This document shows positions 1,470-63,250 of a stretch of 64,000 bases of DNA, piece after piece. The stretch's first letter is position 1; each line of letters opens with the position of its first letter. Both the position numbers and the translations under genes were made by a program. The stretch comes from Dicyema japonicum (Eukaryota; Animalia; Dicyemida): positions 1,339,773 to 1,403,772 of the forward strand of contig RDEW01000013.1 in assembly GCA_011109175.1 (NCBI GenBank), written 5' to 3'. Under the pieces are notes generated by a model. That model was not told where the DNA came from and did no database searches. It saw nothing but the letters and a program-made list of their open reading frames with translations.

Positions 1470-2230
1470 GTCTCAGAGCGCATTGCAAATTTAAAACGCA
1501 CATTGGAACTCCATAAGCTTATTCATTATAATCAATTCTCTTGTTTATTTGAAGCTATTCTTTGTTATCCAACAGCTAAAATTGTCCTATTTCTATATAG
1601 GAATTAAGATATGCGGATGACCTGATTTTGTTTTCGAGGAATCAATTATATCAGCATTGATCTTAAACATGCTGCTGTTGGGAGAGTTGTCCCTGAAATG
1701 AACAAAGAAAAACAGACTTAGTACAATCAAATTGGTATGATGAGATTTAGAGGATAGCAAAAAAAGTGGTTTTTGCATGACGATTTGTAAGAGGTTCAAC
1801 AAAGAAAGATATTCTCAACAATAGCACTGAATAGACAAAAATCGGCATTTCTGAGATCGTTCATGTTACAAGACAAGTAAAGTACGACTATACAATACTT
1901 TCGTCTTTTCCATACTTCTCTACATCTCGGAACGTGGGAACTAACTCGGACATGTTTTGATAACCTAAATGCTTTCCAAAGAAAACAACTAAGGACTTCA
2001 TACACTATCCAATCGTGATAAAAACGAAACTTAAACACAGCTTGAAGTCGGAGCATCTGAATAAAATTATTACAAGAACATCGATCTAAAACATGCTAAA
2101 ATAGCATTAGTCGACGCTAATGATGAACAAAGTCTCCGAAAATCGTTATCTTGTAAGAGCGTGGAGATGTCTAACAACCGGATTATCTGAGGGTGGTTCT
2201 TGGACGATTGAATCATTGGAGAAAGCCCTG
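1470..2230 (+). mobile_element. Degenerate RTE-like LINE, RT region
   Basis: Contains a YADD-like motif (atatgcggatgacct). Colinear with 9770-10450 and with the C-terminal half of the intact RTE at 24661-25848. Many stops and indels. Confidence 0.7.
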
Positions 2231-3400: not shown

Positions 3401-4046
3401 AAAATTCTTGTTTCAAAGTAAACCTCGCATTGAAAGTGTTGCTAAATGATGTAATGTTCCAGGAAGATCGGTGACAATAAAAATTCGACCAAGTTAACAC
3501 GAACAGAATGAAATCCGATCACTCCTAAGATTACGACCTCGGATCTTGGAATGCAGACGGCTGGTCCAACTTGACAGTGGATCCCTACACAGTCAGTAAG
3601 TTAATCAGCGAATCCAAAAGATCCGAATGACGAGAAGAGCCCACGGTGGACAGAAATATTCAGGAAGAGGAACGTTTTCACAATATTGTTGAACAATTAT
3701 CTAAAAATATTAAAACATGACAAGATCGAAGAAGAATGCTATGTTTTACTTGGCCTGGTTACCCTCCTAAGAAAAGAGGACAGCCACCAAATAAATATGG
3801 AAAGAGGAGATTTTTTCTCAGCATATAAATAAATTAATGAATTGGGGGCAATGTAGTTTGCTTCGTTATATAAAAATTTGAAAGGAAAAATGAGACGATG
3901 TTGAGATTCACAAGATTCTTACCGTCTTAAAGAGAGGATCAAGTCTATAAAAAGAGTATTGATCGAAGTATCAAAAAGTTTTGAACAAGATAGATGGAGG
4001 AGAGAATGCTCCAGGCTCTATCGTAATAATCCTGTCGGGCTTAAGT

Positions 4047-4330
4047 GGCTTAGGTTACGGGTTCGATTCTCGCTGCTGTTCACCTGATGGAAGGTTCCGC
4101 GCATCTACGATGCAGAAAGGGTTTGACGAGTGACGCCGTCATCAGTGGATACTCACTGCGGAATTGAATTGTTTAGAAAGGACCCACACACAAGAAAAAA
4201 AAGAAGTGAAGATCATTCCTTGGTTCTACGATTAGTTAAAAATTAACTGTTCTTTACTTAAATAAAGTGTGTGTCCTGGCTATGCGGAGCTATAAATACT
4301 ATGGCTCTCGTGAAAAAAATTAAAAAAAAT
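4047..4330 (+). mobile_element. 5'-truncated copy of tRNA-headed SINE (family B)
   Basis: Colinear and highly similar to 37665-37981. Keeps the B box ggttcgattc and the A-rich tail. Confidence 0.85.
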
Positions 4331-4353
4331 AAATTGTTGAGATTTTTCGAAAA

Positions 4354-4686
4354 CCGCGTGGCGCCATGTGGTGGTGCGTGGTTAATTGGTAAGTTTTTTG
4401 CTTGCTTGTCTCTTCCTCTTCTCTCTTCCTATTATAGTGGCGTCATGTGTTCCACCTGTCTAGGTGACGCCCAGTGCCAGGCGGGAACGAAAAAGGATCA
4501 TTTGCTCTCCCGCACTCCACTGGAAGGGTTTCCACAACTGATATTGTGAAAGTTCAAGATCGTCTAACCTTTTATGTTGATTCCGGATAGACTCTTTCTG
4601 TAGAAGTGGAAACTGGATACACTTAATTAGTTGTTTACTTTAACTTTTTTCTCGGTGTGTCCGGCTTAATAAATAATAAAAATAAA
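4354..4686 (+). mobile_element. Non-autonomous LINE-derived element (family A), copy 1
   Basis: Homologous to 38771-39070(-) and 56972-57207(-). Its 5' end resembles the start of the LINE remnant at 54109. Its 3' end (ctggatacacttaattagttg...aataaataataa) resembles the GIT-stop LINE tails. Confidence 0.8.
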
Positions 4687-5219
4687 TCTCAGTTTCTAAT
4701 TCATACTGATCTGCCCTACGTTATTTCCTTACTATTCTTCCGATCAACGTGAAACAGCAACTAAATAGCGTCATGTCACTACAGGATATTCTGAGATGGG
4801 AATGTCTGGAGAATGTAAGAACTTGTCGTAAGAAACATAGTAAACTGATGCTTACCAAGGAAAACCAAGATCTTTTAATAAAATCTATTTTAGATTGAAG
4901 TTTTAGTATTTTTATGTGAGAGTTTTAGTCATTTTGTGCGAATGGTGAAGCTGCTATGTGAACGTAAACTGCATTCTCTCCTCGTTGGGGACTGGGGAAA
5001 CAGTTAATGAGTTTGATGAATCTGTTGCGCTGGCTGTATCTTCAGAATATTCAGAATTATTCACGGAGTAGTCGACGATCGATTTATCCAGAGAAAGAAT
5101 CGCACCTTAAAAGGCGATTATCGTCTCGCATTTGTATAATTCGTAGAGACCCGTTTTCTATATTCTTCTGACAGTGGATGCTTAAGATTGTCCACAGCTA
5201 ATTTCCGTGTTGATTATTT

Positions 5220-9769: not shown

Positions 9770-10450
9770 TGTTGGGTTGGCTCAGAGCGCGCTCGCATAT
9801 TTAAGATGCACATTCACTCTTCAAAGTGACTCATTATTACCAATTCTCTGTTATTTATCTGTAAGTGCTCTTCGTGATCTGAGAGCTAAATTATATCTTA
9901 CTTCAATCTAGGAATTAATATATGCGGATGACCTAGATTTAGTTTTGAGAACATCTATATCAAAATTTCTTTCAATCATTCTCCTTTAGTGTTTGGAGAG
10001 TTGTTCCTGAAAATAAAGAACAAAAACCGAGCTTTTAAAATCAAATGGAAGCAAACCTACCGATGAGAGTTGGAGAGCAAAAAAATCGGGTCTTTGCTTG
10101 GAGACGGGGAAGATCTTCAACGAAAAAAGATTTTGTCAACAATAGCACTGAATAGACTACAATAAGATAAGTTCATGTTTTAGACCAGTGAAGTACGACT
10201 ATATAATGTTTCGTTCAACCCTTATTGCTCTACAACTCGAAAAAGTGGGGACTAACTGGAATGTGTTTATAACTTGAATGCTTATCACAGAAAGCACATA
10301 TTCCGGGTGAGTAATACCTTTCAAGTTTAAGATAATATGGAATCAAACTTCCTCTGCTCAGGGACTTTCAGAAGGAAGTCACTAACCACTTTGCAATCAA
10401 TAATGAACGTCGATCTAAAATAAGTTAAAATGGCATTAAAAGATAACTTC
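9770..10450 (+). mobile_element. Degenerate RTE-like LINE, RT region
   Basis: ELIYADDLD and GSLLGDGEDL motifs; colinear with 1470-2230. Confidence 0.75.
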
Positions 10451-18589: not shown

Positions 18590-20020
18590 GACGGACCGAC
18601 ACCGATCCGAATATGCACCGACCGAGATCTCTGAGCTATTAACTGAGATATACAACAAAACATTCAAATACAACTCATCACTGGATGTGGGTAATGGCAC
18701 ACTATTGCACTACAAAAACCGGGCAAAGCTAAAGGCCCCTTAACGAATTTAAGACCCATCGTACTATTGACGACTCTACGCAAGACACTATCACTTATAG
18801 TGCTGAACAGGATTGGATCTGACATCGAGAACTTTCTCTCTCACGGTCAAAGCGGATTCAGGTCAGGGAGATCTACAGCTGATGTGGTCTGGGGACATCG
18901 ATGGCTTTGTGCAACACATCAAAAGTACAAGGGGGCTATTGGCATTTGGCATGGACATGTCCAAAGCCTTTGACTCTATACACAGAGGGAGACTTTTGGA
19001 TATCTTGGAGAAGTTGGTTGACGAGGACAGTGTCAGAATGATCCGCCTATTACTTGGAACAACGCAGCTAAGTGTACGTTTTGGAAATTTGGAGTCTGTC
19101 CCATTCGAGACAACGTTCGGGGTACCGCAGGGAGATTCCTTGTCACCGGTACTTTTTGTGACATATCTGGAGGCGGCACTCAGAGACTTCAGACTATTAA
19201 TTGGCGATCTACCTCAAACTGAAGTGATTTATGCAGATGATTTCGACCATATATCCAGCGACGAGAAAACATTAAACTATATACGGACAAGGATGCCAGA
19301 TGTGCTAGAAAAATGGTTCATCAAAATCAATACGGAAAAGACGGAGACAACTACCATACGCTGTGAACTAACCCGAACTGATGAAAAATGGAGATACTGT
19401 AAAAAATTGGGGTCGTTGCTCGGAGACGCTGAAGATATCGCTAACAGAAAGATGTTGGCCTTCGCGGCCTTCAGAAAAATGGGAGTAGTCTGGAATAATC
19501 GTAGACAAATTAGCACACAATTACGTGTCGTGAAACCGGTCCTAATGTACAACGCTGCAACCTGGGGAGTCTCACAAGCGGTAATGGACAAACTAGATGC
19601 CTTCCATCGCAAACAACTCCGACTGTTGCTTGGCATCAACTGGCCAAAAAAATTACAAACAAGAATCTATACAAAATATGTACTACAAGACCATTGAGTC
19701 TGGATATCCTGGAATCAAGATGGCGTCTGTTTGGTCACATCTTCGAATGAGCCAGATGACGCCTGCTAAAATAGCAATGGAGAACTATTTCTGACCAGAA
19801 GTGAATAACTCGTTCCGTGGAAGACCTCGCATAACTTTGCCAGAGGTTCTACACAAGGACCTGACCAATGTAGGCCGAAAGCTGAAAACAGGAGATGATC
19901 TAGATACGCTCGGAATACCTGTCTGTAACCGCTGAGCATGGAGGAAGTTAGTCAATAGAATTGTGGAAGAAAGAATAACCTGAAGAAAAATACGGCACAA
20001 GCGGAACCTTAATTAAATAA
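18590..20020 (+). mobile_element. 5'-truncated, degenerate RTE-like LINE
   Basis: RT motifs QSGFRSGRST, DMSKAFDS, GVPQGDSLSP and YADD. Clear paralog of 22905-25893, with frameshifts, in-frame TGAs and a taaataaa tail. Confidence 0.92.
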
Positions 20021-20149
20021 ATTACATTTTTGGTTCTTCGAAAGTGCTATTAATAATATAATTATGTGTAAACTAAACAGAACATAGTTTATGTTTTAGC
20101 ATAGTAAAACTCTCAGTTGCCTGTTACATAATTTATTTAAATAAAGTCA

Positions 20150-21355: not shown

Positions 21356-22639
21356 TGTGGCGCTCCATGCAGGTTACACCAATTTTAGACGTTACACTTT
21401 GACTATGTAACATGACAGTTGATTTTGACAGGTGACGTTTCATTAAAATCGAAATCTCAATTTCAAATATCGTATTTAAGTAAGTGTGGAGGAATAAAAC
21501 GCCACATAGTAATTGTTCAAAAATGAAACTATAATTCATTAAAACCCCTATCTTGACCCTAATCCAACCATAACCCCTAATTTAACCAAACATATCATAA
21601 CCCTAACCATTTACTAATTCAAATCATAACCTAATCCTAGTCATTTTCCTAACCCTACCACTACCTTGACCGTAATTCTATCTATTAAGCTTTATTAACA
21701 TAGGAGTTTAACCTCATTTTATAGTTTATTTAACCTTACAAATACGGGGTCCTTATTTTTGAATTTTTATGATAAAAAGTAAACACAACATGATGACAAA
21801 ATTACAAAACAGAAAGGCGTAAAAAATTTAACTCGAGATTATTTTAATTTGTGATATCAACACATCTTTTTCGCATTCACAATTCCACTTTTATATACCC
21901 TTTTACTTCCATGAAATAGATAAAAAGGGATTTTCTTCGTGGAAGAATGCAAGCTTTTATTATAATCATACACTACCACCAGTCCAAACATGAAATCCAT
22001 TTTTTATTTTGTTGTATGAAAAGTTTTTTTTGTAACCTACGAGTCAACGTTTGGTTACAACGTTCTACCATCGACTTAAATCCACCAAGTCAATTTGAAA
22101 TCTTTCTCGAGGAAACTTTGCTTTAATGTGAATCATAGGAATTTGAGCTTTTAAAGGTTGGCTTTGTGCACATGCTGTGCATTCGGAACATACATCACGT
22201 ATAATGGATCTTTGATGTTGAAATAATAACTGTCGCAAAATTCTTTCAGTTTAATGATTCCATAATGAGTGGTCAAATGCTTTTTCATTCATTCTATCTT
22301 CTAGTTTGAATATCGTCCCGAGCAATAACACGTTTATGAGCCTCATCACTTGTAAAGAGCTTAGAATCTTCCAACAAGAAAAAATTGTTTTTCTTAATAA
22401 ACCGAAATTTTTGTATTCGTGTAAAATTATGCTTGCATTGTAGATGTGCAACAAAATTATTGTACACTTGGCTAGTCCTGATCATACTTTTAATATGCAT
22501 TTTTCTAACACAGATAATTCGATTTATGAATAAATAGTGAATTAATTGTGGTTAATAGATTTTAGCTGTCAATAACCAAAAAAAATCCAAGGTCAAAGTG
22601 TAACGCCTAAAATTGGTGTAACCTGCATGGAGCGCGACA
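21356..22639 (-). mobile_element. Ginger-type (integrase-like DDE) DNA transposon, internally deleted
   Basis: ~49-bp TIRs start TGT: tgtggcgctccatgcaggttacaccaattttagacgttacactttgac / gtcaaagtgtaacgcctaaaattggtgtaacctgcatggagcgcgaca. Minus-strand remnant VCSECTACAQ..PRERFQIDLVD resembles KRBA2/SCAND3-type integrases. Confidence 0.8.
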
Positions 22640-22874
22640 TGCCGAATTAACAAATGCTTTTAGATGGCTCTTTTGCTATTCTGACTAAAATAGACAAAGC
22701 GTACGTAATTTCGAGAGTAAAATAGTACAACTATGATAAATACAAAAAAGTATCATCTTCACAATTATGGATAAAATAAAATTATCTTTAATTTATGTTT
22801 ATTAATATTTTATTAATTTTATTTGATTTTATATTAATAAAATTTTGATTAACTGTGACAATAACGTTGTGTGA

Positions 22875-25800
22875 ATGTTCCAATTACTAGGTATATAATA
22901 ATAACTATGTCTTCTTCGTATTGCTTACCAGTTTCTCCCCTCACTCTTGGATCCCTCAACTGCCGAGGCCTCAATCAGTGCTACAAGAAACAACAATTGG
23001 CGCGTGATCTGAGTAAATACAACATCTCTGTATGTTGTTTGCAAGAGACGAAAATAACCGAACAAACTGCAGAACTGTTTCAGAATTTTTACCTTTTGAC
23101 CCTCACACCAGACTGCAGGCACTATGGGCTCGGATTTGCTGTTCATCGGCACTTGTTTCACTGTGTCTCAAGAGTATGGGCAGTATCTGACCGTGTCGCG
23201 GTGTTACAAATCAAATGCGGAAACAAACTCAACTCAGTGATCTCCATCATAAATGTATATGCCCCAACCGGAGCACGTGTATCAACGAATATCGAAGAAC
23301 TGGATACGTTTTACTCTACTCTCACAAGTGTGTACAACTCACTTTCATCCTCTTACTTTCTTTTTATCGCCGGGGACTGGAACGCCAGGGCCGGAAAAGC
23401 AAGACCTGGTGAAACGTGTATTGGATCCCACGGTAGAAACCGCCGTAACATCCCCGGAGAGGCATTAATACAATTTTGCACGGCATTCAACCTACTCATA
23501 TGCAACACTTGTTTCAAGCACCCGGCAAGACACAGGACCACGTGGGTTGGTACCAGAAAAGGCAAATCTGGAAACACAGTCAATATATACAATCAGATCG
23601 ACTATATTATCTGCAAGCAACATCAGAAGGCCCTCCTACAGGACTCGAGATCTTACGGTGGACTTGAAACAAGTAGCGATCATAAACTTGTGGTCGCCCG
23701 GCTAGTACTTAAAAGAATCCATGGAATACACGGGAAACACAAAGGCCTTACCTCAGTACGTTTCGACACTGAGAGGTTACGCTACGAAGAATCCACCAAA
23801 TGTCGTTATAGTGCAGTTCTGAGAGATAGCATCAACAGTATTAACCAAAATCAGCCGACAAACAGCTTATGGGATGAAATAGTGGTTGCTATCCAAAACA
23901 CAGCCTTTAGTGTGCTTGGTCACATCACCAAATCTCGTCACAAACAATGTAATCCGGATATCGGACAACTCTCTGTAACACAGAAAGAGCTCAGACTCCG
24001 GATGGAAAACACAAACGCTCCGGAAGATATCAAAGTACTGCGCACCCAGAGAGGGAGAGTCTTAACGAAGATCAAACAAATACAAAGATTCCTTGCCAAA
24101 AATGAAGCTGAGGAGAAAATCTCAGACATATTAAAGTACAAGAACGGACCAAGAATGTTCAAAGCAATCCGGCTTCTTAGCAGAGAAAACTGTCCAATTT
24201 CGTTAACTGTCCATGACAACCTTGGTCACGACGTTATCGGGACCATTAACAAAGCAAACGTTCTGGCATCCCATTTTGACCTTATGTTCAACAAACAGGA
24301 CGCGGCTGACCAAGCAATGAAATCTCGGAAGTCTTACAAGTACACTCTAACTAGCCCTATTACCATATCCGAAACTCAACAAGCTATTAAAAAATTAAAT
24401 ACCGGAAGATCTGCCGGACCAGACTTCATTACTGCAGAACTTTTACAATACGGCCCGGAGGAGCTAATTGAAATGATTACTAACATTTTCAACCGGTCTC
24501 TCGAGGGTGCAGATGAACTGGAACTGGGAAAAGGGTGGCTAATTCCACTACAAAAACCGGGAAAAAGTAAAGGCCCCCTCACAACTTCAGACCTATTATA
24601 CTCCTAACCTCCATACGAAAAACATTATCCCTCATTGCTTTAAACCGAATAAAGGAGAGGGTGAACATATTTCTTTCGGACGGCCAAAGTGGATTCCGGA
24701 CGGGCAGGTCCACGGCTGACGTGGTATGGGGGCACAGGTGGTATTGTGCCCTGTGCCAAAAATACAAAAAATCTATTGAGATACTTGGTATCGACATGTC
24801 CCGTGCGTTCGACTCGGTGGACCGTGGAAAACTTATGGAAGTGTTGGAGAGTTTTCTACTGCCTGACGATGTCAAAATAATACACTTACTCATGCGGAAC
24901 ACTCAACTTGCCGTCAAAATTGGTGACTCTACCTCTAACTTTTTTTCGACCTCACGTGGAGTTCCACAGGGGGACTCACTATCCCCGGTCCTCTTTATTG
25001 TCTACCTTGAGGCCGCACTAAGAGAGTTCAGACCCCTGGTTGGCAACAATTATAACGAGATAATCTACGCGGACGACCTGGACTTTGTTTCTGAGGATAT
25101 TCAAGTACTTCAACACATGCTTAACGTTCTTCCACACGTATTCTCGAAATGGTTCTTAACCGTTAACACCGATAAAACAGAGTTCACAACACTTACACGC
25201 AATGATCGAAGATCGGACGAGTCTTGGAGAAAGCAAAAGAAGGTGGGTTCGCTTCTCGGGGACTCAGAAGATGTTTCTCGGAGGAAAATCCTCGCAATGT
25301 GTGCACTAAAGAAAGTATCGAATATGTGGGGTCATAAGAAGAGGATGGGATTAAACACCAAACTCAGAATATATAAGGCTTTTGTCATCCCCGTCCTGAC
25401 CTACAATTCAGGCACTTGGGGAATCTCTAAACAAGAGATGGACCGTCTTGACGCTTTCCACAGGACACAATTGAAATCAGTAATCAAGATCAAGTGGCCT
25501 AAGAAGATCTCAAACAATGACCTCTACTCGAAGTGCAAATCTGGTATACTATCCGAGGAGATCTTCAGATCAAGATGGAGTCTCTTTGGACATATCTTAC
25601 GTCTAAATGCTCAAGTACCCGCGAATATCGCCATGGAAAACTACCTAATGCATACGGGAGCCGGTTTCCGTGGAAGACCAAGAGTCACACTCCCAACTAT
25701 TTTGAATGGAGACCTATCGGCTGTGGGACTGAAGCTCACTTCCGCAGACGACTTAGATACCTTAAGGGAACTGGCACGAAGTAGAGGGTCCTGGAAAAGG

Positions 25801-26727
25801 CTGATAGAGAGGATGGCTAGAAATACGGCACAAGGGAGGCTTGATTAATTTTATGACTTCTCGGGAGTGCTTTAAATAATAATAAATAATAAAATATAAT
25901 AATAAATAATATCACCAGTATATTCATGTATAATAATTTGTAAATCAACAATGAGTGAAATTATAACTTCAGTAATATTGGATAATGTAGTACCAATGTG
26001 GGTTGTTAGAGAGGATGCTCGGACTATAGTATTATTTAAAGGAAAAATTGATGTTTCGTACAAAATTAATAATACTATAATCACATTATATTACTAAAAA
26101 GATTTTACATGAAAATTTTAATGATGCAAAATTTGATTTTAAAAAATTTGAAGGTGGTCAATTTAAGTTTTCATGGACGAAAAATGGCATAAAAATAATA
26201 TTTACCACCAAATATCATGCTTCAGCTAATTTATTATTAGTTCGTTTGGAATTATTAGCATATAAGGATAAATGTATAGAAAATGGTTTATTAATTTAGA
26301 TCATGACGAATTTGTTGATTTTCCAGAGAAATTCACAAATAACAGTTATTATAAATGTAGCAAATGTGTTGTGTATTTCCCTCCATATGGTAATGTCACT
26401 ATTAGTGATATGAAACTACAATTATTGAAAACAGATAATAGTACAAGTTTTACCGGAAATGGTTATTTTAATTTAATCATTATTTAGAATTCGATTGTAA
26501 ATTTGGTAATGGAAAAAATCTCAAATTAAAGTCAACAGCTTTATTCACTACAAAAAGCAAAATATATGCATCAACAACTATCATTAGTCCAAAAAGTACA
26601 TAAAAATATAAATATAGATAACAAACATATAATGGCAGTTTTTGTAATTGGGGGAATTACAGTTATTGTTGGAATATTTTTGATATTAAAACGACGGCGA
26701 AGACGTTATCATTCATTAACTCATTAA
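22875..26727 (+). CDS. LAMP-domain-like membrane glycoprotein, paralog B (LINE in intron 1; possibly pseudogenised)
   Basis: Exon 1 at 22875-22890 (MFQLL); exon 2 from 25919 (VYSCIIICKSTM..). Further introns at 26077-26101 (AT..AG), 26274-26299, 26462-26487 and about 26596-26617. Ends with TM segment AVFVIGGITVIVGIFLIL then KRRRRRYHSLTH*. Confidence 0.8.
22905..25893 (+). mobile_element. Near-intact RTE-like LINE, single APE-RT ORF 22907-25848
   Basis: APE motifs SLNCRGL, LQETK, NVYAPT, GDWNA, QIDYI, SDH; RT motifs QSGFR, AFDSV, VPQGDSLSP, YADD. One missing A near 24583 splits the ORF (restoring it gives LTNFRPIILL). (TAA/TAAA)n tail; 12-bp TSD ATATAATAATAA at 22893-22904 and 25894-25905. 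Confidence 0.97.
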
Positions 26728-28101: not shown

Positions 28102-29226
28102 TTATAATTGAGAAATTGCCTTGCTCTCTCCAAGATAGACTGTTCTGTAAATATTGTTGAGACGTTCCACCACCAAGAATGTAATTATCGTGTGAGGGGC
28201 CAGTCTTGAGAAATAAGCGGTGAATCCCTTCCAAAGTGAGAAAAACCCCTCGCGTTGACTACTTTTATTAAAACATCCTAAATTGAATTTATGACAAATT
28301 ACAATCATCCCGTTGTATTCCCGAGTCTTCATACTCTGTAGTCTCGTTTTCGCCATATCCACGGGAAGGGACACAACAGTGGTGAGAAATCCGCTCATTG
28401 TCCCCGCAATCAACTGACATTTCAAAGTCTCCGTTCCAAAAGACTCTAATATTAAGAGATTCACCAAACCATTATTTAAGTTGTACAGAATTTCTTTAAA
28501 TTGAGAATATGAGGCCAACTGTGATGCATTCACAAGAATTGCCCTAATCACAGTGGGAAGTGACCCCTAATTGTACTCAATCAAGCTAACCCTCCAAAGA
28601 GTGGTCATTCCTTCTTCCTTTATCATTCTTACAAGAGCGTCTCCGACATGCCTATAATTTCTCCTTTTGGACGGTTCCAACCTTTAAAGCAATCAATTGG
28701 TCCCTTACCTTCCATCCGTGGCCATTCGTATGAGAGAAATCTCAGCAGGGGTACCACAGAATGCTCCCACAGCACCAGAAGTCATTCCAATACCCAATTT
28801 CGCGCCCAAACCAGGACTGACTCCTTCATTTCTTAAATAATAAAAAACAGATGACCTTCTACGAAAAGTATCGAATAAATATGAGTAACAGCCCAGTCGA
28901 ACAGTTGTATAAGATGCTTGCCGCAAAATACCAGCTGATAATCTGAAATCGATAAGAGAATATAAACCCGGAATACATGGCGAGGGCTCCTTCATTTCTC
29001 AAAATCGTCCTGAAGGCTTGAGCTGTGGAGGAAAACTCCTTTTGCCGAGAACCGGAACCTACCAAGTCTTACAATTAAGTACCGCTCATTTGTATTCTAT
29101 TTTTAACCACATCCATTGGCTGGACTATTGTAGTCGCGAAAATCCTGAGATTAATCACTAAAGGTACCCTGATAAACCTGCGAATGTAAATTTAAGGTAA
29201 AGAGGTGTAGCCTGGTTATCTTTCAT
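28102..29226 (-). CDS. SLC25A11: Mitochondrial 2-oxoglutarate/malate carrier
   Basis: Spliced protein has VQPMDVVKNRIQ, GLSAGILRQASYTTVRLG, GTPAEISLIRMATDGRL, RAILVNASQLASYSQFK, SLPVDMAKTRLQ and RLAPHTIITF. Introns at 29145-29167, 29059-29082, 28943-28967, 28832-28855, 28682-28708, 28567-28590, 28446-28469 and 28278-28302. One apparent missing base near 28256. Confidence 0.93.
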
Positions 29227-29699
29227 ATCTTTATTTGATTGTCAGTTTATTAAAATTTGAATTAAAAAATGATTTTAAATTATTTATAATTATAATTTAT
29301 TGAAATTTTAATTCTGATAATAATTTGAAATCACTTTATAATTCGAAGATTAATAAAAATTAGGATTAACAATAATTATTCCATATTCTTTTTTAGGTTG
29401 AGCTAGTGACACGGGTCAATTGCACGAATTCTCAATCAGGCATAAGGCTATCAGAGAAATCTTACCGCCAAGACCTGAATACTTACATTGGCACTAATAG
29501 ATGCTTTCAAGAGACGAAAATCAAGTGTGACTCAGAAATGATGGTAATATAAATAGATTTAAGCTATGGCAATAGTACTTCATATGCTTAACCACATATT
29601 GAAAGTCATAAATTAAACCACTGTAGATATATTAGTGATAAACTAATTATTTTGATGTGTTCATGTAGGATTATACAATAGATCAGGTAACATAGTGGT

Positions 29700-30983: not shown

Positions 30984-31255
30984 AGGTTATCTGAAGCAGT
31001 TGGGGGTAGATAGGAAGCTCCAGGCCTATCTACAGTCCACTGTGTTAAAGCGGACCCTAGAGAGCTTGACACTGGAGTATAGGAGGCAGAGCCCTGAGAT
31101 ACCATATGGGCAGAGGGTTCAATTTGACAATGCGCTCTCGGAGTTATTTCAGCAATCAGAATCGAACCTGCCTGAGGAGGCTGGCGAACAGGCAGGCGAA
31201 AAAGGTTGTTGGTCAATAAATATATTAACTTTTTTATTGTTTGTTAAATAAAGAT
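30984..31255 (+). mobile_element. 3' tip of R4/NeSL-like RLE retrotransposon
   Basis: Near-identical to 61992-62256 (GVDRKLQAYLQSTVLKRTLESL). Confidence 0.8.
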
Positions 31256-32329
31256 GAGTAGCTTAATTTGATTTTATAAAAAAATAATTATTTAAAAATG
31301 TATCGTGTGCTAATGAATGTGCCCTCTAAAATTTAATTAATTTTACTTTTTAGTGCCAGACAAATATCCAGATGTTTTTGGGTTCAAATCTGCTGCGGTA
31401 CATTCCGGCCAAAAGTTCCATGTATCTACGATACTTCTGAGTTTGAAGAGTAACGACACCATCAGTGATAACCCAACTTGAGAACCAGATAGCATAAAAG
31501 GACTGAAATGGAAAAAAATAAGATGGGAATATACCTTGAATCCTTCTCAGTCGGTGTTAATTAGGTTATTTTTAGACGTTCTAACACATACATTTACAGA
31601 GACCTTCGATAATTGTTTCTGACAATATCCTTATCTTGTAAAAGGAATGAAGTCACTTTGTCTACTAATCAGCGATTACTGGCCATTGATGTCTGTTATG
31701 GAATAAATCTAATTTGTTATATTCCTTGTTACACAATCTCTGTATGTTAACTTTGACAGATTTATATCAATCTGTTTGTGTTTGAACTAACAATCCATCT
31801 CCAAGAGAACTGGAATTACCCAACCTTGTCACTTGTTGAAATGGATATCTCAAGTTAGATTGGTTCATACTTCAATAGTCTTGCTAATATTCCATCAGAG
31901 ACCGGGAATTTTACATTTAAGTCTTAACATAACCGATATTGCTTCCCCTACTATTATTAGATTTTTAAAGCCATCAGAATTGCTTTGGATTGTATATTTT
32001 GTAGTTCATATTAGTGTTCTGACATGAAATCCGATTTTTATTCTTATTCGTAAGAATATTCATTTATTTGTCGATAATAGTAACATCGTCATTATTTGTC
32101 GATAATAGCTCATTCATTATACATATTTCCTTTAACATCTTTGATTATTCTCATATTTTAACTTCACAGTTCCTTGTTTTATTCATTTTTTTAGTTTTTT
32201 ACTTTTTGTAAGCTGCAGGTTACATAAATTTTACTAACTCTTTAGTTTTGTGTAAATCGAGCTTTTCCATCCATAAGAAGTGATCTCCTTATTGATTGTA
32301 TTGGTGTCTCGTCATGGAGGTGCGGCAAG

Positions 32330-37664: not shown

Positions 37665-37981
37665 AGCCGGGTGGCATAGTGGCTAGGGCTAACCTAAAGT
37701 GGCTTAGGTTACGGGTTCGATTCTCGCTGCTGTTCACCTAGTGGAAGGCTCCACGCATCTACGATGCCAAAAGGGTTTTACGAGTGACGCCGTAATCAGT
37801 GGATACTCACTGCGGAACTGGATTGTTTAGAAAGGACCCACACACAAAAAAAAAAGAAGTGAAGATCATTCCTTGGTTCTACGATTAGTTAAAATTAACT
37901 GTTCTTTACTTAAATAAAGTGTGTGTCCTGCTATGCGGAGCTATAAATATTATGGCTCTCGTGAAAAAGGCTATTAAAAAA
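37665..37981 (+). mobile_element. Full-length tRNA-derived SINE (family B)
   Basis: A box tggcatagtgg, B box ggttcgattc, 3' stem-loop gagctata-aatat-tatggctc and A-rich tail. 12-bp TSD ATTGGTCTGAAT at 37653-37664 and 37982-37993. Confidence 0.92.
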
Positions 37982-38307
37982 ATTGGTCTGAATCAATCAG
38001 TCTTATATCTGTGCTGTCAATAACCATGATAAAACATAAATTGACAGAATACTAAATTGTTGTGAGTAAACCAGTTCTCCATTCAGTCAATAAAGTTAAT
38101 GATCGGAAATAAATATGTAATCATGGGTTAATCACTTGAACCAAGTTTCTATTGAGACGTAAAACTGAAGATAGAAGTCTCGCAGAGTTTGCTTTTAAAC
38201 CTGTTCTATTCAACACTCTCATGGCTAATATACAGCTACTGAGGACATCAATATGGAAATTCTTCTTATGCAAATGACGTCCTTGTGCCAAGTTTCGAGA
38301 AAGATAT

Positions 38308-38402
38308 AAAGATATAAATAATCTATCCTATCTTTGAAGATAAAAGATATAAATAATCTATCCTATCTTTGAAGATAAAAGATATAAATAATCTATCCTA
38401 TA
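38308..38402. repeat. 35-bp tandem repeat, about 2.7 copies
   Basis: gatataaataatctatccta recurs at 38311, 38346 and 38381. Confidence 0.95.
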
Positions 38403-38770
38403 GATATAATAATCTAAGGAAAAGCTATTAGAAAAAATAAGTCTTTCATGTAATTCTATCACAAGAAAATTGCGATTTAAAAAGGAGATTTTCTTCTTTG
38501 TGTTCAAATACGTCATCATACTCATCCTTAATAATGGCTTCGAGGGCTAATTAAACTAACATAAAGGTATCAAACTTGTCTTAAAGAAAAACTAAAAAAG
38601 AACTCACAATTGAAGAAAACGATCTGATGTAACAAATCAAACGGAAATAAATGAAAAAAATAGTTAACTCTGAAAGAGTCACTCTAGATACTAATACAGT
38701 GTTTCTCAACGGGGGCGATTAGCCCCTATATTTGTCCAGAGGCAATTTTTAATTAATGATTTTTTAAATT

Positions 38771-39070
38771 ATTTATTAACCCCGGATACACCGAGAAAGA
38801 AGTTAAAGTAACCAACTAATTAAGTGCATCCAGTTTCCACTTCTACAGAAACAGCATAAAGGGTAAGACGTCATTACATGCAGTTGTGAAAACCCCTCCA
38901 GTGGAGTGGGGAAGAGCAAATGATCCTTTTTCATGCCGGCCTGGCACTGGGCGTCACCTAGACAGGTGGATCACATGACGCCACTCTATTAGGAAGAGAG
39001 AGGAGGAACAGACAAGCAAGCAGAAAATTTAAACCAATTAACCACGCAGCACCACATGGCGCCACGCGGC
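38771..39070 (-). mobile_element. Family A non-autonomous element, copy 2
   Basis: Reverse complement is colinear with 4354-4686. Confidence 0.85.
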
Positions 39071-40248: not shown

Positions 40249-41062
40249 TTAATAATTAAAAATCTTCAAACTTAATGAATAATAACGTCTTCGGCGAAGT
40301 TTTAAAATGAAAATAATTCCAAAAATAATTAAAATTCCAACAATTACACAAACAGGCATTATATATTTGTTATCTAATTTTTATTATATAAGGTACTTTT
40401 TCGACTTTTTTTACTGGCAGTTGTATAAACTGTCGATTTTAAAGTATTATTTGTAAGTTTATCAAATTCACATTCTAATGCTAAACCATGATTAGTCTTA
40501 AAATAACCATTTCCAGTAAAACTTGTACTATTATCTGTTTTCCATAATTGGGCTTTCGTTTTTGTTAAAGTGAGAGATGCATTTTCTGATAATAGTATAA
40601 CCTGTTTAGAGCAGCTATAATAAGCATTTCTTGAGATTTCATAAAAATCATTAAAATCCATATTAATTTTTATTATTGCTAGAGAATAGTAATAAATTCA
40701 AGTCAACAGCAAACAGATTGGCTGATATTATTATGATTTTCATTTGCAATTTTACGTCGTTCTTTTTCCAAGAAAGCATAATATTATCATGTTCTAATTT
40801 TGTGAACTCAAAATGACCATTGTCTAAATTTTCATACATAATCTTTTCTTAAATAATATAATTACAGTTTCATTAATTTTGTATGCCACGTCAATGTTTC
40901 CACTAAATAATGCTATAACCCTATAGTCCTCAATTACAATCCACTTTGGCACTCTGTTATCCATTATTACTGAGGTTTTTATTTCACTCATTGATTTATT
41001 CATTACTAGACACGAATACACTAAATATATTAGATTATTTTTGAAACTTATAATTCTAACAT
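40249..41062 (-). CDS. LAMP-domain-like membrane glycoprotein, paralog C
   Basis: Same exon layout as A, B and D. YYSCSKQVILLSEN..KAQLWKTDNSTSFTGN|ALECEF; one stalk module; TM then LRRRRYYSL. Single-base indels in exon 1 and near 40668. Confidence 0.75.
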
Positions 41063-45489: not shown

Positions 45490-46798
45490 TCTATATAATA
45501 AAAGAATAAGTTGTCAGTCTGTCTGTCCGTGCGCACTTATATAGCTAAAAAAGGATATGCCTAAAATAATTGGAAAATAAAATGATTCGACCTCTTCAAG
45601 AGATTGGTAATTTAGAAAATTAAAATTCTAAAGAGTTTAAAAAAAGAGATTCATTAGAAAATAGGATGATTCGACCTTTTTCTTTTATCTGTTACTGAGA
45701 AAATTGAAATTAAAAAAAACTTAAATAGAATATTCATGAGGTTACTGAACTTCAAATAACCAAAAATTAACAATGGATAAACCAGCAGATGAATTAAATG
45801 CATGTCTGAAACCATCGTATTTGTGGACTTTTGTAAAAAAGGTAAGTTTAGATGTAAATATTCGTGCACAAAACAAGTCATAATACCTTCGCTAAGGTAA
45901 TTTTAAATGTAGGTAATGGAGCACTCGAAAAAATTCAGAAGATTTAAACTTCCTGAAAAATTATGTATAAATGTACACAGCCCAGAAAATTTATTGACTT
46001 TTTTATCCAGATCTGCAGGAAAACTACAGGTGTTTCGACTGGCTTCGGGAAAGAGCTATACTAGCACCACTAAATGATGAAGTACAAAATATTAACTTGG
46101 ACTTACTTATTAAATTACCTGGGTTACGACGTATTTATAAATCTATTGATGTAATTATGAATCAAGAATCAGCATGTGAATTTCCTGTGGAATTTCTAAT
46201 TTCTTTAGAGCCGTCAGGGATGCCTCATCATACTTTAAAATTAAAAGTAGCAGTTGTTCTATTACGAAATCTAGAATCTCAAGGATTATGTAATGGTACA
46301 AGATTGGTAGTAAAAAATTTGATGTCTAATATTATAGAAGCAACGATATTAACGGGGCGAAATAAAGGAGAAGACGTTTACATTCCAAGAATTCCAATAA
46401 TTTCGGATAAATTACCATTTAATTTAAGAGACTACAATTTCCATTGAAGTTGAGTTTCGCAATGACAATCAACAAATCACAGGGAAAAACTCTTAAAGTA
46501 GTAGGTTTATATTTAGCAAGTGAATGTTTTGCACATGGACAGTTATATGTAGATTGTTTTAGGGTAGGTGAACGAGAAAACCTATTCATATAGACAGAGG
46601 ACGGTCGTACAAGCAATGTTGTATATCAACAAACATTACAATAAGATATTTGATAATTTTTAATATAACAATCAGTTTTTTTTAAAAAAAATAGTTTAAT
46701 TAATTAAATATAATTCACTAAGAAAAAAACTAATCTCCGCAGGAGCGAAATAGGAGTGAACTCTGAAGGTGTGAACGACAGCCGTCCGCAAGACCTAG
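45490..46798 (+). mobile_element. Non-autonomous Helitron with Pif1 helicase remnant
   Basis: 5' TC (tctatataataaaag plus a ctgt microsatellite), 3' CTAG after a degenerate hairpin, inserted between A and T. Encodes ERAILAPLN, GLCNGTRL, FAMTINKSQG and FAHGQLYV. Confidence 0.9.
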
Positions 46799-50884: not shown

Positions 50885-52044
50885 TTAAACAGAACCAATT
50901 AAGTTAGTATAATAATCTAAAATATTTGTAGTTAATGGACGATAAGGTCTTCTGTGATATTTTAATATTAAAAAGATTCCAGCAATACCTATAATTCCGA
51001 CAATTACAAAAACTGCAATGTATTCTAAATTTAAATATTTTAGGTACTTTTTAGACCACTGTTTGCTAAACTATATGTTTTGGCTATCGTAGAGAAAAAA
51101 CCTGTTGAGTTTAAATCGTTATCTGCATTAATTATTTATCTACTTTTTCGAATATTTGTAATGATAGTTGTTGCAATAGTTTTTGCATTCGTAGTCGAAA
51201 AAACAGTTGTGTTTAATTCGCTATCTAATTTAAGTGTATTAACTACCTTTTTGACTGCTTTGACTGCTAGTTGTGGAAATAAATGTTTTTGGATTCGTGG
51301 TCGAAATACTTGTCGACTTTATTTCGTCTTCTAAATTTAAGATGTTATGTACCTTTTGGACTACTTTGAATACTAGTTGTAGCAGTATATGTATCCTGGT
51401 TCGTGATGACTAAAGTTGTTGATTGGAAATCATTTTTTTTTGTTTATCAAATTCACATTCTAATGCTAACAATGATTAGATGTTAATAACCATTTCCAGT
51501 AAAACTTGTACTATTATCTGTTTTCAATAATTGGGCTTTCGTCTCAGTTAAAGTGAGATTCACATTTTCTGATATTATTATAACCTGTTTAGAGCAGCTA
51601 TAATATGCATTTTTCGGAATTTTATAAAAATCATTAAACCCCACATTATTTATATTATTGCTAGAAGATAGATATATATCTAAATCTACGGTAAACAAAT
51701 TGGTTGATCTTATTATGGTTGTCATTTGCAATTTTACGTCGTTCTTTTTCCAAGAAAGCATAATATTATCATGTTCTAATTTTGTGAACTCAAAATGACC
51801 ATTGTCTAAATTTTCATACATAATCTTTTCTTAAAAAATATAATTACAGTTTCATTAATTTTGTATGCCACGACAATGTTTCCACTAAATAATGCTATAA
51901 CCCGATAGTCCTCAATTACAATCCACTTTGGCACTCTGTTATCCATTATTACTGAGGTTTTTATTTCACTCATTGATTTATTCATTACTAGACACGAATA
52001 CACTAAAATATTAGATTATTTTTGAAACTTACAAGTTTTAACAT
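50885..52044 (-). CDS. LAMP-domain-like membrane glycoprotein, paralog D (four stalk modules)
   Basis: MLKLV|MYSCLVMNK..; close duplicate of C. Stalk exons at 51247-51330, 51144-51224 and 51048-51122. TM segment IAVFVIVGIIGIAGIFLIL then KYHRRPYRPL. One homopolymer indel near 51435. Confidence 0.8.
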
Positions 52045-56971: not shown

Positions 56972-57207
56972 ATTTATTAACCCAGGTACACCGAGATAAA
57001 ATTAACAGTTAACAACTAGTTAAGTGTATCCAGTTTCCACTGTTACAGAAACAAAGTCTTCAACGTTAAGTCCTACAGAACCAACATAAAAGGTAAAAGA
57101 CGTTCATTCCTTGCCGTTGTGGAAACCCATCCAATGGAGTGGGGGAGAGCAGATGATCCTTTTTAATGCCAGTCTGGCACGGGCACCACCTGAGACATGT
57201 GGATCAC
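56972..57207 (-). mobile_element. Family A element, copy 3 (5'-truncated)
   Basis: Colinear with 38771-38975. Confidence 0.8.
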
Positions 57208-57314
57208 AAAACCACATGGATTTTCTTGAGACATACATGTATTTCCATAATAAATACATTTACAATCAACTATTGCAAAAATATCTAATTTTTTGATTCA
57301 ATTTTTAATTTGAC

Positions 57315-60019: not shown

Positions 60020-60920
60020 AACAAGGAAGAAATTTATGATGAAATTATTATCCAATTTAGTTATCAGATCCCGAAGAGCAGCTCCCAGATAAACAACAGA
60101 GAATTGTTGATAATTAGTCACCTGATGGAGCGCCAATATATGTTGAGTGTTTGCGAGTGTTCTGAGGACCCTGACTTTTAATTCCATGTTTGAAAGTAGA
60201 ACTCGTATGATCCTTAAACTGTCTTCGTCTAGTAACTTTTCTATTACTCACATGAATTTTCTCTAAAAGTCTCAATAAATCAATCACTAGATAGAAGTGT
60301 GCCTCCGTAGGATCGTGAGATCATTAATTACATTTAAGATTATGACAGAAGATTCTATAATCTATCTGATTGTAGATAGGAGCTGTCTTTCCATCCTGAT
60401 TTTTCCTTTGTCTCATCCATGTAGAAAAAAGTCTCGCTGGATGTTTTAATACCGTATTACACAGGAAAAGATCAAATGAAGGCGGAAATAAATCAGAGCA
60501 ACACCATTAAGGTTCTTCATTCCACTGCTATGAGCTCCAAGAAAGTTTCATTCTGAAGTGTTCCCATTTTTGAGTTCTAATCGCCTGCAAGGAAGGTGTG
60601 GGAAAAGCACGTATATCCCAATAACCACGACGAAATCCGAGATTTTTAATTTCTTGAGGGACGTTCTCAATTGCTATGCCCATTTTTTGGTGCCTAAATG
60701 TTAATAATCGTTAAGGCGTTTTCCCGTAGTATTGATATACCGTCACTGACACTCCAGCACTTTTGGATCGAGTTGGCAAATCTTTTGTGTACCGCAAAGA
60801 AAGACCTTTCCATAGTGTCGACACTCAGGTTTAATGAATATTAACCTGTATGTTCCCGCTACTTTTCCCGGATCTCTGTTTAAGCTTAGTCTCTTGGAAC
60901 AAGCGATAGACTCCATAACG
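60020..60920 (-). mobile_element. Internally deleted RTE-like LINE remnant
   Basis: CLFQETK, ECRHYG, YNQIDY, SRSYGG and VYLGAALRD motifs as in the intact copy. Confidence 0.75.
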
Positions 60921-61904: not shown

Positions 61905-62256
61905 TATCGAGATGGGGCAGATGCTTGGTTGCAAGGTCCTCGTTATTCCTATAGTAATGACGTGGGAAGGAATTGCAACAAAGTACCACAAGGGTTATCT
62001 GAAGCAGTTGGGGGTAGATAGGAAGCTCCAGGCCTATCTACTGTCCACTGTGTTAAAACGGACCCTAGAGAGCCTGACACTGGAGTATAGGAGGCAGAGC
62101 CCTGAGATGCCATATGGGCAGAGGGTTCAATTGGACAAGGCGCTCTCGGAGTTGTTTCAGCAACCAAAATCGAACCTGCCTAAGGAGGCTGGCGAACAGG
62201 TAGGGGAGGAAGGTTGTTGATTAAATATATTAACATTTTTATTGTTTGTTAAATAA
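61905..62256 (+). mobile_element. 3' end of R4/NeSL-like RLE retrotransposon
   Basis: CKVLVIPIVMTWEGIATKYHKGYLKQLGV..AYL.STVLKRTLES; duplicate of 30984-31255. Confidence 0.8.
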
Positions 62257-63250
62257 AGTAATAATTTTATATTATAAATTAATTTATCCACATTTTTATT
62301 AAGATTTTCATCAAGAACTTCATTTTGGTGAAAACCTCAAAATTGTGGAATTTCCGCCCCATTTCTGGTTCTGACTGTATTATGTTGTATTTAAGTTGGA
62401 TTTGACTCTTAAATACTTTCTATTATTGAAAGTGTAATTGTCATCAAAACTTGCCTATTTTATTTCCAAAAAGAGAATTTCATATAATCTATGTTTACAG
62501 ATTAGTGATATCATTTTAATATGGTTTACTATAGCTGGTGAAAATAATCCTTTTACAGATGTTAACTGTCTCTCAACATCATCTTACCTAATAACTCCAA
62601 ACAGCTGATAGACGTCTTTACTGTTTATAAAACATTCCTAATTACAATGACTTGTCATCGTGTGTCCTTTTGCAGCTAATTTGTTAATATATTATCTAAT
62701 TAGTGAAATTAATTTAAAGACAACTCCTAGTTGTGACACTGTCAACATCATAATGTCAATTCTAGTTATTTTTGTTATAAGTTTATCAAAACCACAATTA
62801 AATAACAATAATGTTTAAAGATTAGAGACTTAAGACTCTACGTGGAGGATCTCTGATAGCGACCCAATATGGCTTCCAACGTGTTCGCAAACCTGGAGTT
62901 AATTTCACTTCAAAGTTAAGCACAAGTGTCCAAATTAACAAATTTCAAGTCAGTATTTTTGTTTATTCAACGTTTTGTAGTAAACTCGTAAATTCGATGT
63001 CTCTAACTTCCAAGTTTATTCATTCACTTTAGAAGAATGAAGTCCAAGTTGATAATCCTCACAAGCTAAAATGTATTTCGAATCAATCACCTCCCCCATG
63101 CTCATGGGAGGAAGGGAGAGTTTCATATATCATAAAGCTAGGTAGACATTTCATCCAATGAGGTATGCCTTATCCTCAACCTTTGACCATATATGTATAT
63201 GTGAGTATTATTTCATATCTTACGACCTCCACTAACTTAGTGAGGTAGAC

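What the first reader, a model, noticed from the sequence alone, without database searches (positions are those of the whole stretch)
22875..25918. A full 3-kb LINE inserted into a 27-nt microintron, positioned to use the host promoter
Seen: removing the element and one TSD copy restores GTATATAATAATAAATAATATCACCAG (27 nt), the same first intron as in paralogs A, C and D. The intron is now 3028 nt, about 110-fold longer, with donor and acceptor intact. The LINE is in sense orientation and has only 2 nt before its ATG (22907), so it carries essentially no 5' UTR or promoter. In unspliced RNA, host exon 1 becomes a 7-codon uORF (ATG TTC CAA TTA CTA GGT ATA TAA) ending 8 nt before the LINE ATG. 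Inference: a natural test of whether a spliceosome tuned to 21-30-nt introns can remove a kilobase intron. If it cannot, the host gene becomes a promoter for a near-intact retrotransposon. The TAA-rich target resembles the element's tail, so AT-rich microintrons may be preferred targets.
Basis: partly seen in the sequence, partly recalled or inferred. Interest (0 to 1): 0.78.

Follow-up and report, generated by a model that had tools for sequence, protein, structure and literature searches.

The report
Truncated LINE inserted in a microintron
A young, 5'-truncated retrotransposon sits inside a 27-base intron of one copy of a multi-copy gene in an animal with tiny introns; it likely knocks that copy out, and splicing is predicted to fuse the host's first exon in frame to the retrotransposon instead of removing a 3-kb intron.

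Summary
The insertion is real in the window: an APE+RT LINE (22905-25893) with a perfect 12-nt target duplication sits in intron 1 of a multi-copy, possibly LAMP-like gene, giving a 3,028-nt GT-AG span.

(1) It is not 'full'. Public contigs show the family has a GC-rich leader of at least 27-32 more bases; this copy is 5'-truncated just before its ATG.
(2) Contigs from sample S1 hold three empty-site variants and none listed bridges the filled 5' junction, so the insertion is likely polymorphic or private, and redundant copies exist.
(3) This host copy also lacks the GT of intron 2, which spoils the 'natural test'.
(4) Kilobase introns are already annotated in microintron animals.

New point: the first AG at least 19 nt after the host donor lies 41 nt away, inside the LINE, and using it joins host exon 1 in frame to the LINE ORF ahead of its first conserved motif. 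If the copy is transcribed, the likely product is an exon 1-LINE fusion RNA, not a uORF transcript or a spliced 3-kb intron. No RNA from this allele was seen. An ordinary event in an unusual genome, with one testable prediction.

The parts
22875..22890 (+). Host gene B coding exon 1 (ATG plus 5 codons and 1 base); unspliced it reads on as a 7-codon uORF ending at 22898
22891..22892 (+). Host intron 1 donor GT
   Evidence: same position and phase in paralogs A, C, D
22893..22904 (+). Target-site duplication, 5' copy; its last base also matches the family leader (1-nt microhomology)
   Evidence: loose ends begin before 22904
22905..25893 (+). RTE-like LINE, 2,989 nt, coding-complete but 5'-truncated (leader lost)
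22907..24607 (+). LINE ORF, endonuclease half (PF03372), from ATG to the stop reached after the frameshift
22930..22931 (+). Cryptic acceptor AG, the first AG after the host donor; defines a 41-nt, 71% AT intron whose removal puts exon 1 in frame with the LINE ORF (predicted)
24574..24578 (+). C run at the frameshift between the endonuclease and RT frames; some contigs of X1, X5 and X7 have a longer run; mutation or assembly error
24571..25848 (+). LINE ORF, reverse transcriptase half (PF00078), ending at stop 25846-25848
25849..25893 (+). Short 3' UTR (about 24 nt) and TAA-type tail with AATAAA at 25881 and 25888; a GT at 25867 could pair with the native acceptor as a 52-nt intron (predicted)
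25894..25905 (+). Target-site duplication, 3' copy
25906..25918 (+). Rest of host intron 1 with the native acceptor AG at 25917-25918
25919..26076 (+). Host exon 2
26077..26101 (+). Host intron 2 position (25 nt); starts AT, whereas paralogs A, C, D start GT; retention gives a stop after 64 codons
   Evidence: a 25-gap contig of X7 spans it
26102..26727 (+). Host exons 3-6 with introns 26274-26299, 26462-26487 and 26596-26617; the exon chain encodes 241 aa with an N-terminal hydrophobic stretch, a C-terminal hydrophobic segment and a short basic tail with a Tyr motif (LAMP-like, unproven)
   Evidence: weak fold hint

Best explanation
A 5'-truncated RTE-like LINE sits in the first microintron of one copy of a multi-copy membrane-protein-like gene, likely inserted recently by target-primed reverse transcription, and it likely knocks that copy out. 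Shown: 12-nt duplication, TAA tail resembling the target, lost leader, empty-site contigs, and a second lesion at the intron-2 donor. Inferred: the endonuclease nicked a TAA-rich site that paired with the RNA tail, and cDNA synthesis stopped just upstream of the ATG. Predicted: if the host promoter still fires, the short-intron machinery pairs the host donor with the first AG 41 nt away (or leaves it unspliced), not with the AG 3 kb away. That RNA would join exon 1 in frame to the LINE ORF and could end at the AATAAA signals in the tail. No host protein would result, and close empty copies would cover the loss.
For: TSD, tail and domains. Same GC-rich loose end before 22904 in one contig each of X2 and X3 (27 and 32 nt). 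From the X2 depth bins, contigs starting at 22904 carry about 1,000 against 1,129 for the next element contig, so most 5'-complete copies likely have the leader (my arithmetic). Three empty-site contigs account for all depth at 22881-22902 in X2 (167.5+65.7+31.3=264.5) and X3 (205.7+74.8+36.4=316.9). Many element contigs have 0-1 differences from this copy, and the two near-fixed differences listed for X1 within the LINE are synonymous: young. In 20 of 20 modelled GT introns of the window (22-27 nt, median 24.5) the acceptor is the first AG at 19 nt or more. The 41-nt splice is in frame and replaces only residues 1-8, while all but a few of the best 150 homolog matches start at residue 8 or later. 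Intron-2 donor is AT. RTE elements in introns and AT-rich sites are described (PMC1291365 passages).
Against: No RNA from this allele was seen, so every splicing statement is a prediction. The first-AG rule is partly circular: 17 of the 20 acceptors were chosen by that rule, checked by open frames and, for the carrier gene, by 51% identity over 260 aa to a homolog. 41 nt is longer than all 20 modelled introns and above the 90th percentile (32 nt) of the best-fitting published genome. Long introns are annotated in such animals. The window seems to carry residual single-base errors (a frameshift in a conserved carrier gene), so the A at 26077 and the LINE frameshift may be errors. No listed contig bridges the filled 5' junction.
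Confidence: 0.55

Rival explanations
1. The 3,028-nt intron is removed at useful efficiency and the insertion is a tolerated intron expansion.
For: Native donor and acceptor are intact, and the AT-rich sequence before the acceptor is duplicated. In the supplement table of PMC13644364, Henneguya salminicola (annotated with Iso-Seq) has median 27 nt, 90th percentile 978 and maximum 16,378; Myxobolus rasmusseni median 22, 90th percentile 2,911; Dicyema japonicum maximum 2,855, with 1,216 of 29,387 introns over 100 nt. The paper found no extra signals in long myxozoan introns.
Against: A CAG acceptor lies 41 nt from the donor and a GT 52 nt before the native acceptor. 3,028 nt exceeds the longest annotated intron of the best-fitting genome. 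Even if spliced, the intron-2 donor is lost in the window sequence. No 22890/25919 joint was listed in the four runs laid, which is no evidence either way.
Confidence: 0.15
2. Promoter and start-codon capture: the copy is an active source element whose full protein is translated from the host ATG through the 41-nt splice.
For: In-frame fusion keeps all conserved endonuclease sequence. AATAAA signals lie in the tail. The only coding break is a 1-nt shift in a homopolymer where some contigs of three runs have a longer run, and the window has a similar break in a housekeeping gene, so the ORF may be intact in the animal. Close relatives of the host gene appear as intron-less contigs in X7, which suggests the family is transcribed.
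Against: In-frame by chance is 1 in 3. No transcript of this allele was seen. No daughter copy beginning with host exon 1 fused to the LINE was listed among the loose ends or joints shown (33 loose-end rows not shown). The family has its own leader, so it does not need this route.
Confidence: 0.12
3. The host copy was already a silent pseudogene, the LINE landed in dead sequence, and nothing is transcribed.
For: Intron-2 donor lost. Paralogs C and D also have broken frames. The window's copy differs from laid contigs (100% T at 22853; 9 differences in 245 nt from an X7 contig).
Against: The rest of the 241-codon exon chain is open and the other splice sites are canonical. The breaks in C and D are single-base and may be assembly errors.
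Confidence: 0.13
4. The filled site is an assembly artefact joining an empty gene to a repeat.
For: No listed contig bridges the 5' junction, and the window's base at 22853 is absent from X1-X3 contigs.
Against: The two flanks are contiguous halves of one gene with an exact 12-nt duplication and only 1 nt of homology at the 5' join, which an assembler is unlikely to invent. Sample S1 differs from the window in the flanks generally, so it is likely another isolate; contigs show presence, not absence.
Confidence: 0.05

Closest known systems
RTE-clade non-LTR retrotransposons (C. elegans RTE-1; Schistosoma SR2, SR3, Perere-3), as described in PMC1291365 (passages)
   Same: About 3 kb, one APE+RT reading frame of about 980 aa, very short 3' UTR ending in AT-rich short repeats, AT-rich targets, copies in host introns, 5' truncation common.
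   Different: No labelled RTE protein was available for a tree. Nearest database relatives are only 48-51% identical and mostly unnamed; named ones are from Phytophthora, Achlya and Elysia. The host intron here was 27 nt.
Host-promoter co-transcribed LINEs (R2 with HDV-like ribozyme; Perere-3 with twister variants), PMC8501958 (passages)
   Same: An element that would be transcribed from an upstream host promoter.
   Different: Those carry a 5' ribozyme that frees the element RNA as a family trait. Here dependence comes from truncation of one copy; Rfam found nothing in the region or in 20 related loci, and the full leader could not be examined.
Microintron animals: Dicyema japonicum and myxobolid myxozoans (PMC13644364, PMC6736024, PMC6543705)
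   Same: Window introns 22-27 nt, median 24.5, reduced GTA/GTT donors; GC 34.8%. Best fit is D. japonicum (median 24, quartiles 23-25, GC 36.7%).
   Different: The taxon was not established by any search. The searches found no paper on a LINE inserted in a microintron of these animals.
LAMP-family membrane proteins (host gene)
   Same: N-terminal hydrophobic stretch, all-beta predicted domain, C-terminal hydrophobic segment, basic tail with a Tyr motif (pattern recalled); LAMP-1 and LAMP-2 domains ranked 6 and 9 in Foldseek.
   Different: No Pfam, PDB-sequence, homolog or Atlas hit; model pLDDT 43 and E-values 0.06-0.08, so not significant.

Membership tests
APE-type non-LTR retrotransposon (LINE) | APE endonuclease upstream of reverse transcriptase, no LTRs | tested here: met
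   PF03372 E 5e-8 and PF00078 E 1e-31; no long direct repeat at the ends in the self-comparison
APE-type non-LTR retrotransposon (LINE) | Short target-site duplication and simple-repeat 3' tail | tested here: met
   12-nt TSD, TAA-type tail, empty-site contigs
RTE clade | Single ORF of about 1,000 aa with APE and RT | tested here: met
   The two frames together cover homolog P0121 from residue 15 to 987 of 993; about 980 codons; one frameshift in this copy
RTE clade | Very short 3' UTR with AT-rich short repeats | tested here: met
   About 24 nt plus TAA repeats; criterion from PMC1291365
RTE clade | RT phylogeny groups with named RTE elements | tested here: inconclusive
   Tree of 85 sequences had no labelled RTE reference; the element groups with a second window LINE (support 0.98) among unnamed relatives
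RTE clade | No large ORF1 upstream | not testable with these tools
   Only about 30 nt of the family leader were visible; they hold an in-frame stop 7 codons before the ATG
Full-length autonomous copy | Complete 5' leader | tested here: not met
   Family contigs continue at least 27-32 nt upstream of 22904 with a sequence this copy lacks; a 16-nt piece of it is absent from the window at up to 3 mismatches
Ribozyme-headed co-transcribed LINEs (R2, Perere-3 type) | Self-cleaving ribozyme at the 5' end | tested here: inconclusive
   No Rfam match in 22400-26200 or in 20 of 80 related loci; the lost leader could not be scanned
LAMP family (host gene) | LAMP domain by profile or structure | tested here: inconclusive
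   No Pfam hit on three contiguous pieces; weak Foldseek ranks from a low-confidence model

The most novel reading that the evidence does not exclude
In a genome that splices by nearest-AG rules, a LINE dropped into a first microintron is not buried in a long intron but exonized: the host donor re-pairs with an AG 41 nt away inside the element, so the host promoter and ATG drive a complete retrotransposon protein. A leaderless, truncated copy is thereby turned into an active source element, and microintron genes act as built-in gene traps for LINEs.
Probability: 0.12. Interest if true: 0.6.

Novelty: new member of a known kind. Interest (0 to 1): 0.3.

Why it matters
How 20-30-nt introns are recognised is stated as open in PMC13644364. 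This allele offers three distinguishable junctions from one donor (41 nt, 3,028 nt, or none), with empty copies as controls, so it could show whether such a spliceosome takes the nearest AG. If the fusion is made and the ORF is intact, it would be a route by which truncated LINEs regain expression. The value is limited: it is one allele in a redundant family with a second lesion, seen in one assembly, and a genome-wide RNA check of already annotated long introns would answer the general question better.

Tried and rejected
No whole genome is held for the window, so no genome-wide survey of insertion sites or 5' ends was possible.
No RNA holder listed; this is no evidence on expression.
X7 and X5 have no cover over exon 1; no evidence either way. 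No 22890/25919 or 22890/22932 joint was listed in either laying.
Rfam: nothing in 22400-26200 at E up to 1, nothing in 20 of the 80 related loci at gathering score.
Host protein: no Pfam family, no homolog among 47 candidates, no Atlas hit, one PDB sequence at E 3.8, model pLDDT 43, no fold match at E up to 0.001. The queries were contiguous pieces, some with retained introns, so these blanks are weak.
Taxon from the carrier gene: best 120 of 357 hits were 40-48% identical, none named as dicyemid or myxozoan; uninformative.
RT tree gave no clade label and no basis for a horizontal-transfer claim.
No convincing TSD for the second LINE at 18609-about 20065 (best 8 nt).
Microintron targeting: rejected as unsupported; one case, and the few other 3' flanks seen as loose ends are too short and too few.
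The idea that the 27-nt gap in an X7 LINE contig is a spliced microintron could not be tested: the gap was not located; three 27-nt GT-AG candidates exist.
Earlier findings of this scan: none near or by words.

Full report
Observation. The sequence matches the finding. The host ATG is at 22875 and the LINE ATG at 22907; the longest direct repeat flanking the element is 12 nt, at 22893-22904 and 25894-25905, and it occurs nowhere else in the window. Paralogs A (ATG 8715, +), C (41062, -) and D (52044, -) have an intron at the same codon and phase, of 24, 27 and 26 nt, with different sequence. The element encodes an APE endonuclease and a reverse transcriptase in two frames that meet at a C run, 24574-24578. 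It ends in a 3' UTR of about 24 nt and a TAA-type tail.

Genome context. Twenty modelled GT introns in the window are 22-27 nt, median 24.5, mean 77% AT; eight of them lie in a mitochondrial carrier gene whose spliced frame is 51% identical to a homolog over 260 aligned residues. GC is 34.8%. Published tables list two animal groups with such introns; Dicyema japonicum (median 24, quartiles 23-25, GC 36.7%) fits best. This is a fit, not an identification; the carrier search gave no close named relative.

The element is truncated, not leaderless by design. Database relatives are single frames of about 1,000 aa, the best at 48-51% identity; the 18 inspected start 8-32 residues before the first endonuclease motif, and this ORF starts 15 before it, so the coding region is complete. 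Laying contigs on 22760-23060 (4 runs) showed one contig each in X2 and X3 (one sample) that matches from 22904 and runs on upstream for 27 and 32 nt with the same GC-rich sequence. That sequence has an in-frame stop 7 codons before the ATG, and a 16-nt piece of it is absent from the window. From the X2 depth bins, contigs starting at 22904 carry about 1,000 against 1,129 for the next element contig; I infer that most copies reaching the ATG have this leader. The window copy therefore lost its leader at integration, with one base of microhomology. As a weak lead, the visible leader contains TGACG, which also occurs within 150 nt upstream of the ATG in 5 of 12 related loci with a usable start (0.98 expected, 0 of 300 shuffles reached 5, top of 1,024 five-mers, but noticed after the fact). 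It may be an internal promoter element that this copy lacks.

Age and polymorphism. Many element contigs have 0-1 differences from this copy. The two near-fixed differences listed for X1 inside the LINE, 25716 and 25753, are synonymous (147 rows of that table were not shown). X1 has two joints skipping exactly 3,001 nt, which is the empty site. In X2 and X3, three empty-site contigs with 1, 4 and 5 differences explain all depth at 22881-22902 (264.5 and 316.9), and all contigs of X1-X3 read T at 22853 where the window has C. So sample S1 shows several close empty copies or alleles and no listed filled one. Contigs show presence, not absence, and S1 differs from the window in the flanks generally, so it is likely another isolate. 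The filled allele thus rests on the window alone, though its anatomy is hard to produce by misassembly.

The host copy has a second lesion. Its exon chain gives 241 codons, but intron 2 begins AT at 26077 where A, C and D have GT; retention stops the frame after 64 codons, and the two nearby GTs give out-of-frame introns of 44 and 49 nt. Two X7 contigs spanning introns 2 and 3 have gap totals of 25 and 26 nt, the sizes of those introns, with 9 of 245 and 2 of 165 other letters. I infer these are spliced RNAs of close relatives, although the run is labelled 'DNA?' and gap positions were not printed. Caution: the carrier gene has a single-base frameshift near 28255, and C and D have single-base breaks, so the assembly likely carries residual errors. 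The LINE frameshift, where some contigs of X1, X5 and X7 have a longer C run (12% of X1 depth, about half in X5 and X7), and possibly 26077, could be errors. The protein resembles a LAMP by layout (recalled pattern); tests were inconclusive.

How it most likely works. Insertion by target-primed reverse transcription at a TAA-rich site like the tail is inferred from the anatomy and fits described RTE behaviour (PMC6007223 and PMC1291365, passages). For splicing, the acceptor is the first AG at 19 nt or more in 20 of 20 modelled introns (partly circular, as 17 were picked by that rule and then checked by frame). After the insertion the first AG downstream of the host donor is at 22930-22931, a CAG closing a 41-nt, 71% AT intron. 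Splicing there puts exon 1 in frame with the LINE ORF, replacing only its first 8 residues, ahead of motif I; the second AG (77 nt) is also in frame but removes that motif. At the other end a GT at 25867 could pair with the native acceptor as a 52-nt intron, and AATAAA lies at 25881 and 25888. The predicted product, if the promoter fires, is an exon 1-LINE RNA and no host protein. None of this was observed in RNA.

Against the 'natural test' framing. The supplement of PMC13644364 lists annotated kilobase introns in microintron animals: H. salminicola 90th percentile 978 nt and maximum 16,378; M. rasmusseni 2,911 and 68,900; D. japonicum 32 and 2,855, with 1,216 of 29,387 over 100 nt. These are annotations, not per-intron proof, and 3,028 nt would exceed the dicyemid maximum, so the question keeps some force for that lineage. 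Transcription of LINEs from host promoters is also known (PMC8501958 passages). Microintron targeting is not supported by one case.

Papers seen: PMC13644364, parts 1-2 of 3 of the main text, a supplement search and supplement part 1 of 64; passages only of PMC6736024, PMC6543705, PMC1291365, PMC6007223, PMC2222250 and PMC8501958. Nine searches listed no report of a LINE inside a microintron in these animals; most subscription papers are not searched, and unread supplements may bear on this.

Verdict. A real, young, 5'-truncated RTE-like insertion that likely disables one redundant gene copy: a new member of a known kind. Its one sharp feature is the predicted 41-nt re-pairing that would fuse host exon 1 in frame to the LINE. 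Interest 0.3; the source-element reading has probability about 0.12 and would deserve about 0.6.

Noticed in passing
window 26274-26299: Gene B has a 26-nt intron that paralogs A, C and D lack; an X7 contig spanning it has a 26-nt gap total. Intron gain or loss within the family.
   Followed up: partly
window 28105-29230 (-): Mitochondrial 2-oxoglutarate/malate carrier-like gene with eight 23-27-nt introns and a single-base frameshift near 28255, which suggests residual indel errors in the assembly.
   Followed up: partly
window 41048-41062 (-), 40663 (-), 51410-51450 (-): Paralog C has a stop in exon 1 and a later frame break; paralog D breaks near an A run. Pseudogenes or assembly errors.
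   Followed up: partly
window 18609-20065 (+): A second, 5'-truncated LINE of a sister family (68% nucleotide identity over 338 nt, tree support 0.98) with a similar 3' end.
   Followed up: partly
window 24445-25362: An X7 contig matches the LINE with 0 substitutions but 28 gap letters, by arithmetic one inserted and 27 missing; the gap was not located.
   Followed up: partly
L002, L003, L029, L038, L056, upstream of the LINE ATG: TGACG occurs in 5 of 12 related LINE leaders (0.98 expected) and in the leader this copy lost; possible internal promoter element.
   Followed up: partly
window 22905-25893: Runs filed under other organism labels (X5, X6) hold pieces of this LINE at about 98-100% identity; mixed samples or a shared element, not examined.
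   Followed up: no
window 45998-46444 (+): Pif1 helicase 2B-domain fragment (PF21530), possibly a Helitron remnant.
   Followed up: no
window 60283-60865 (-), 10004-10309 (+), 1791-1994 (+): Further decayed LINE remnants.
   Followed up: no
window 4040-4688, 37694-39069, 56972-57208, 30985-31280, 61993-62278: Short dispersed repeats of 240-340 nt at 73-93% identity, unclassified.
   Followed up: no
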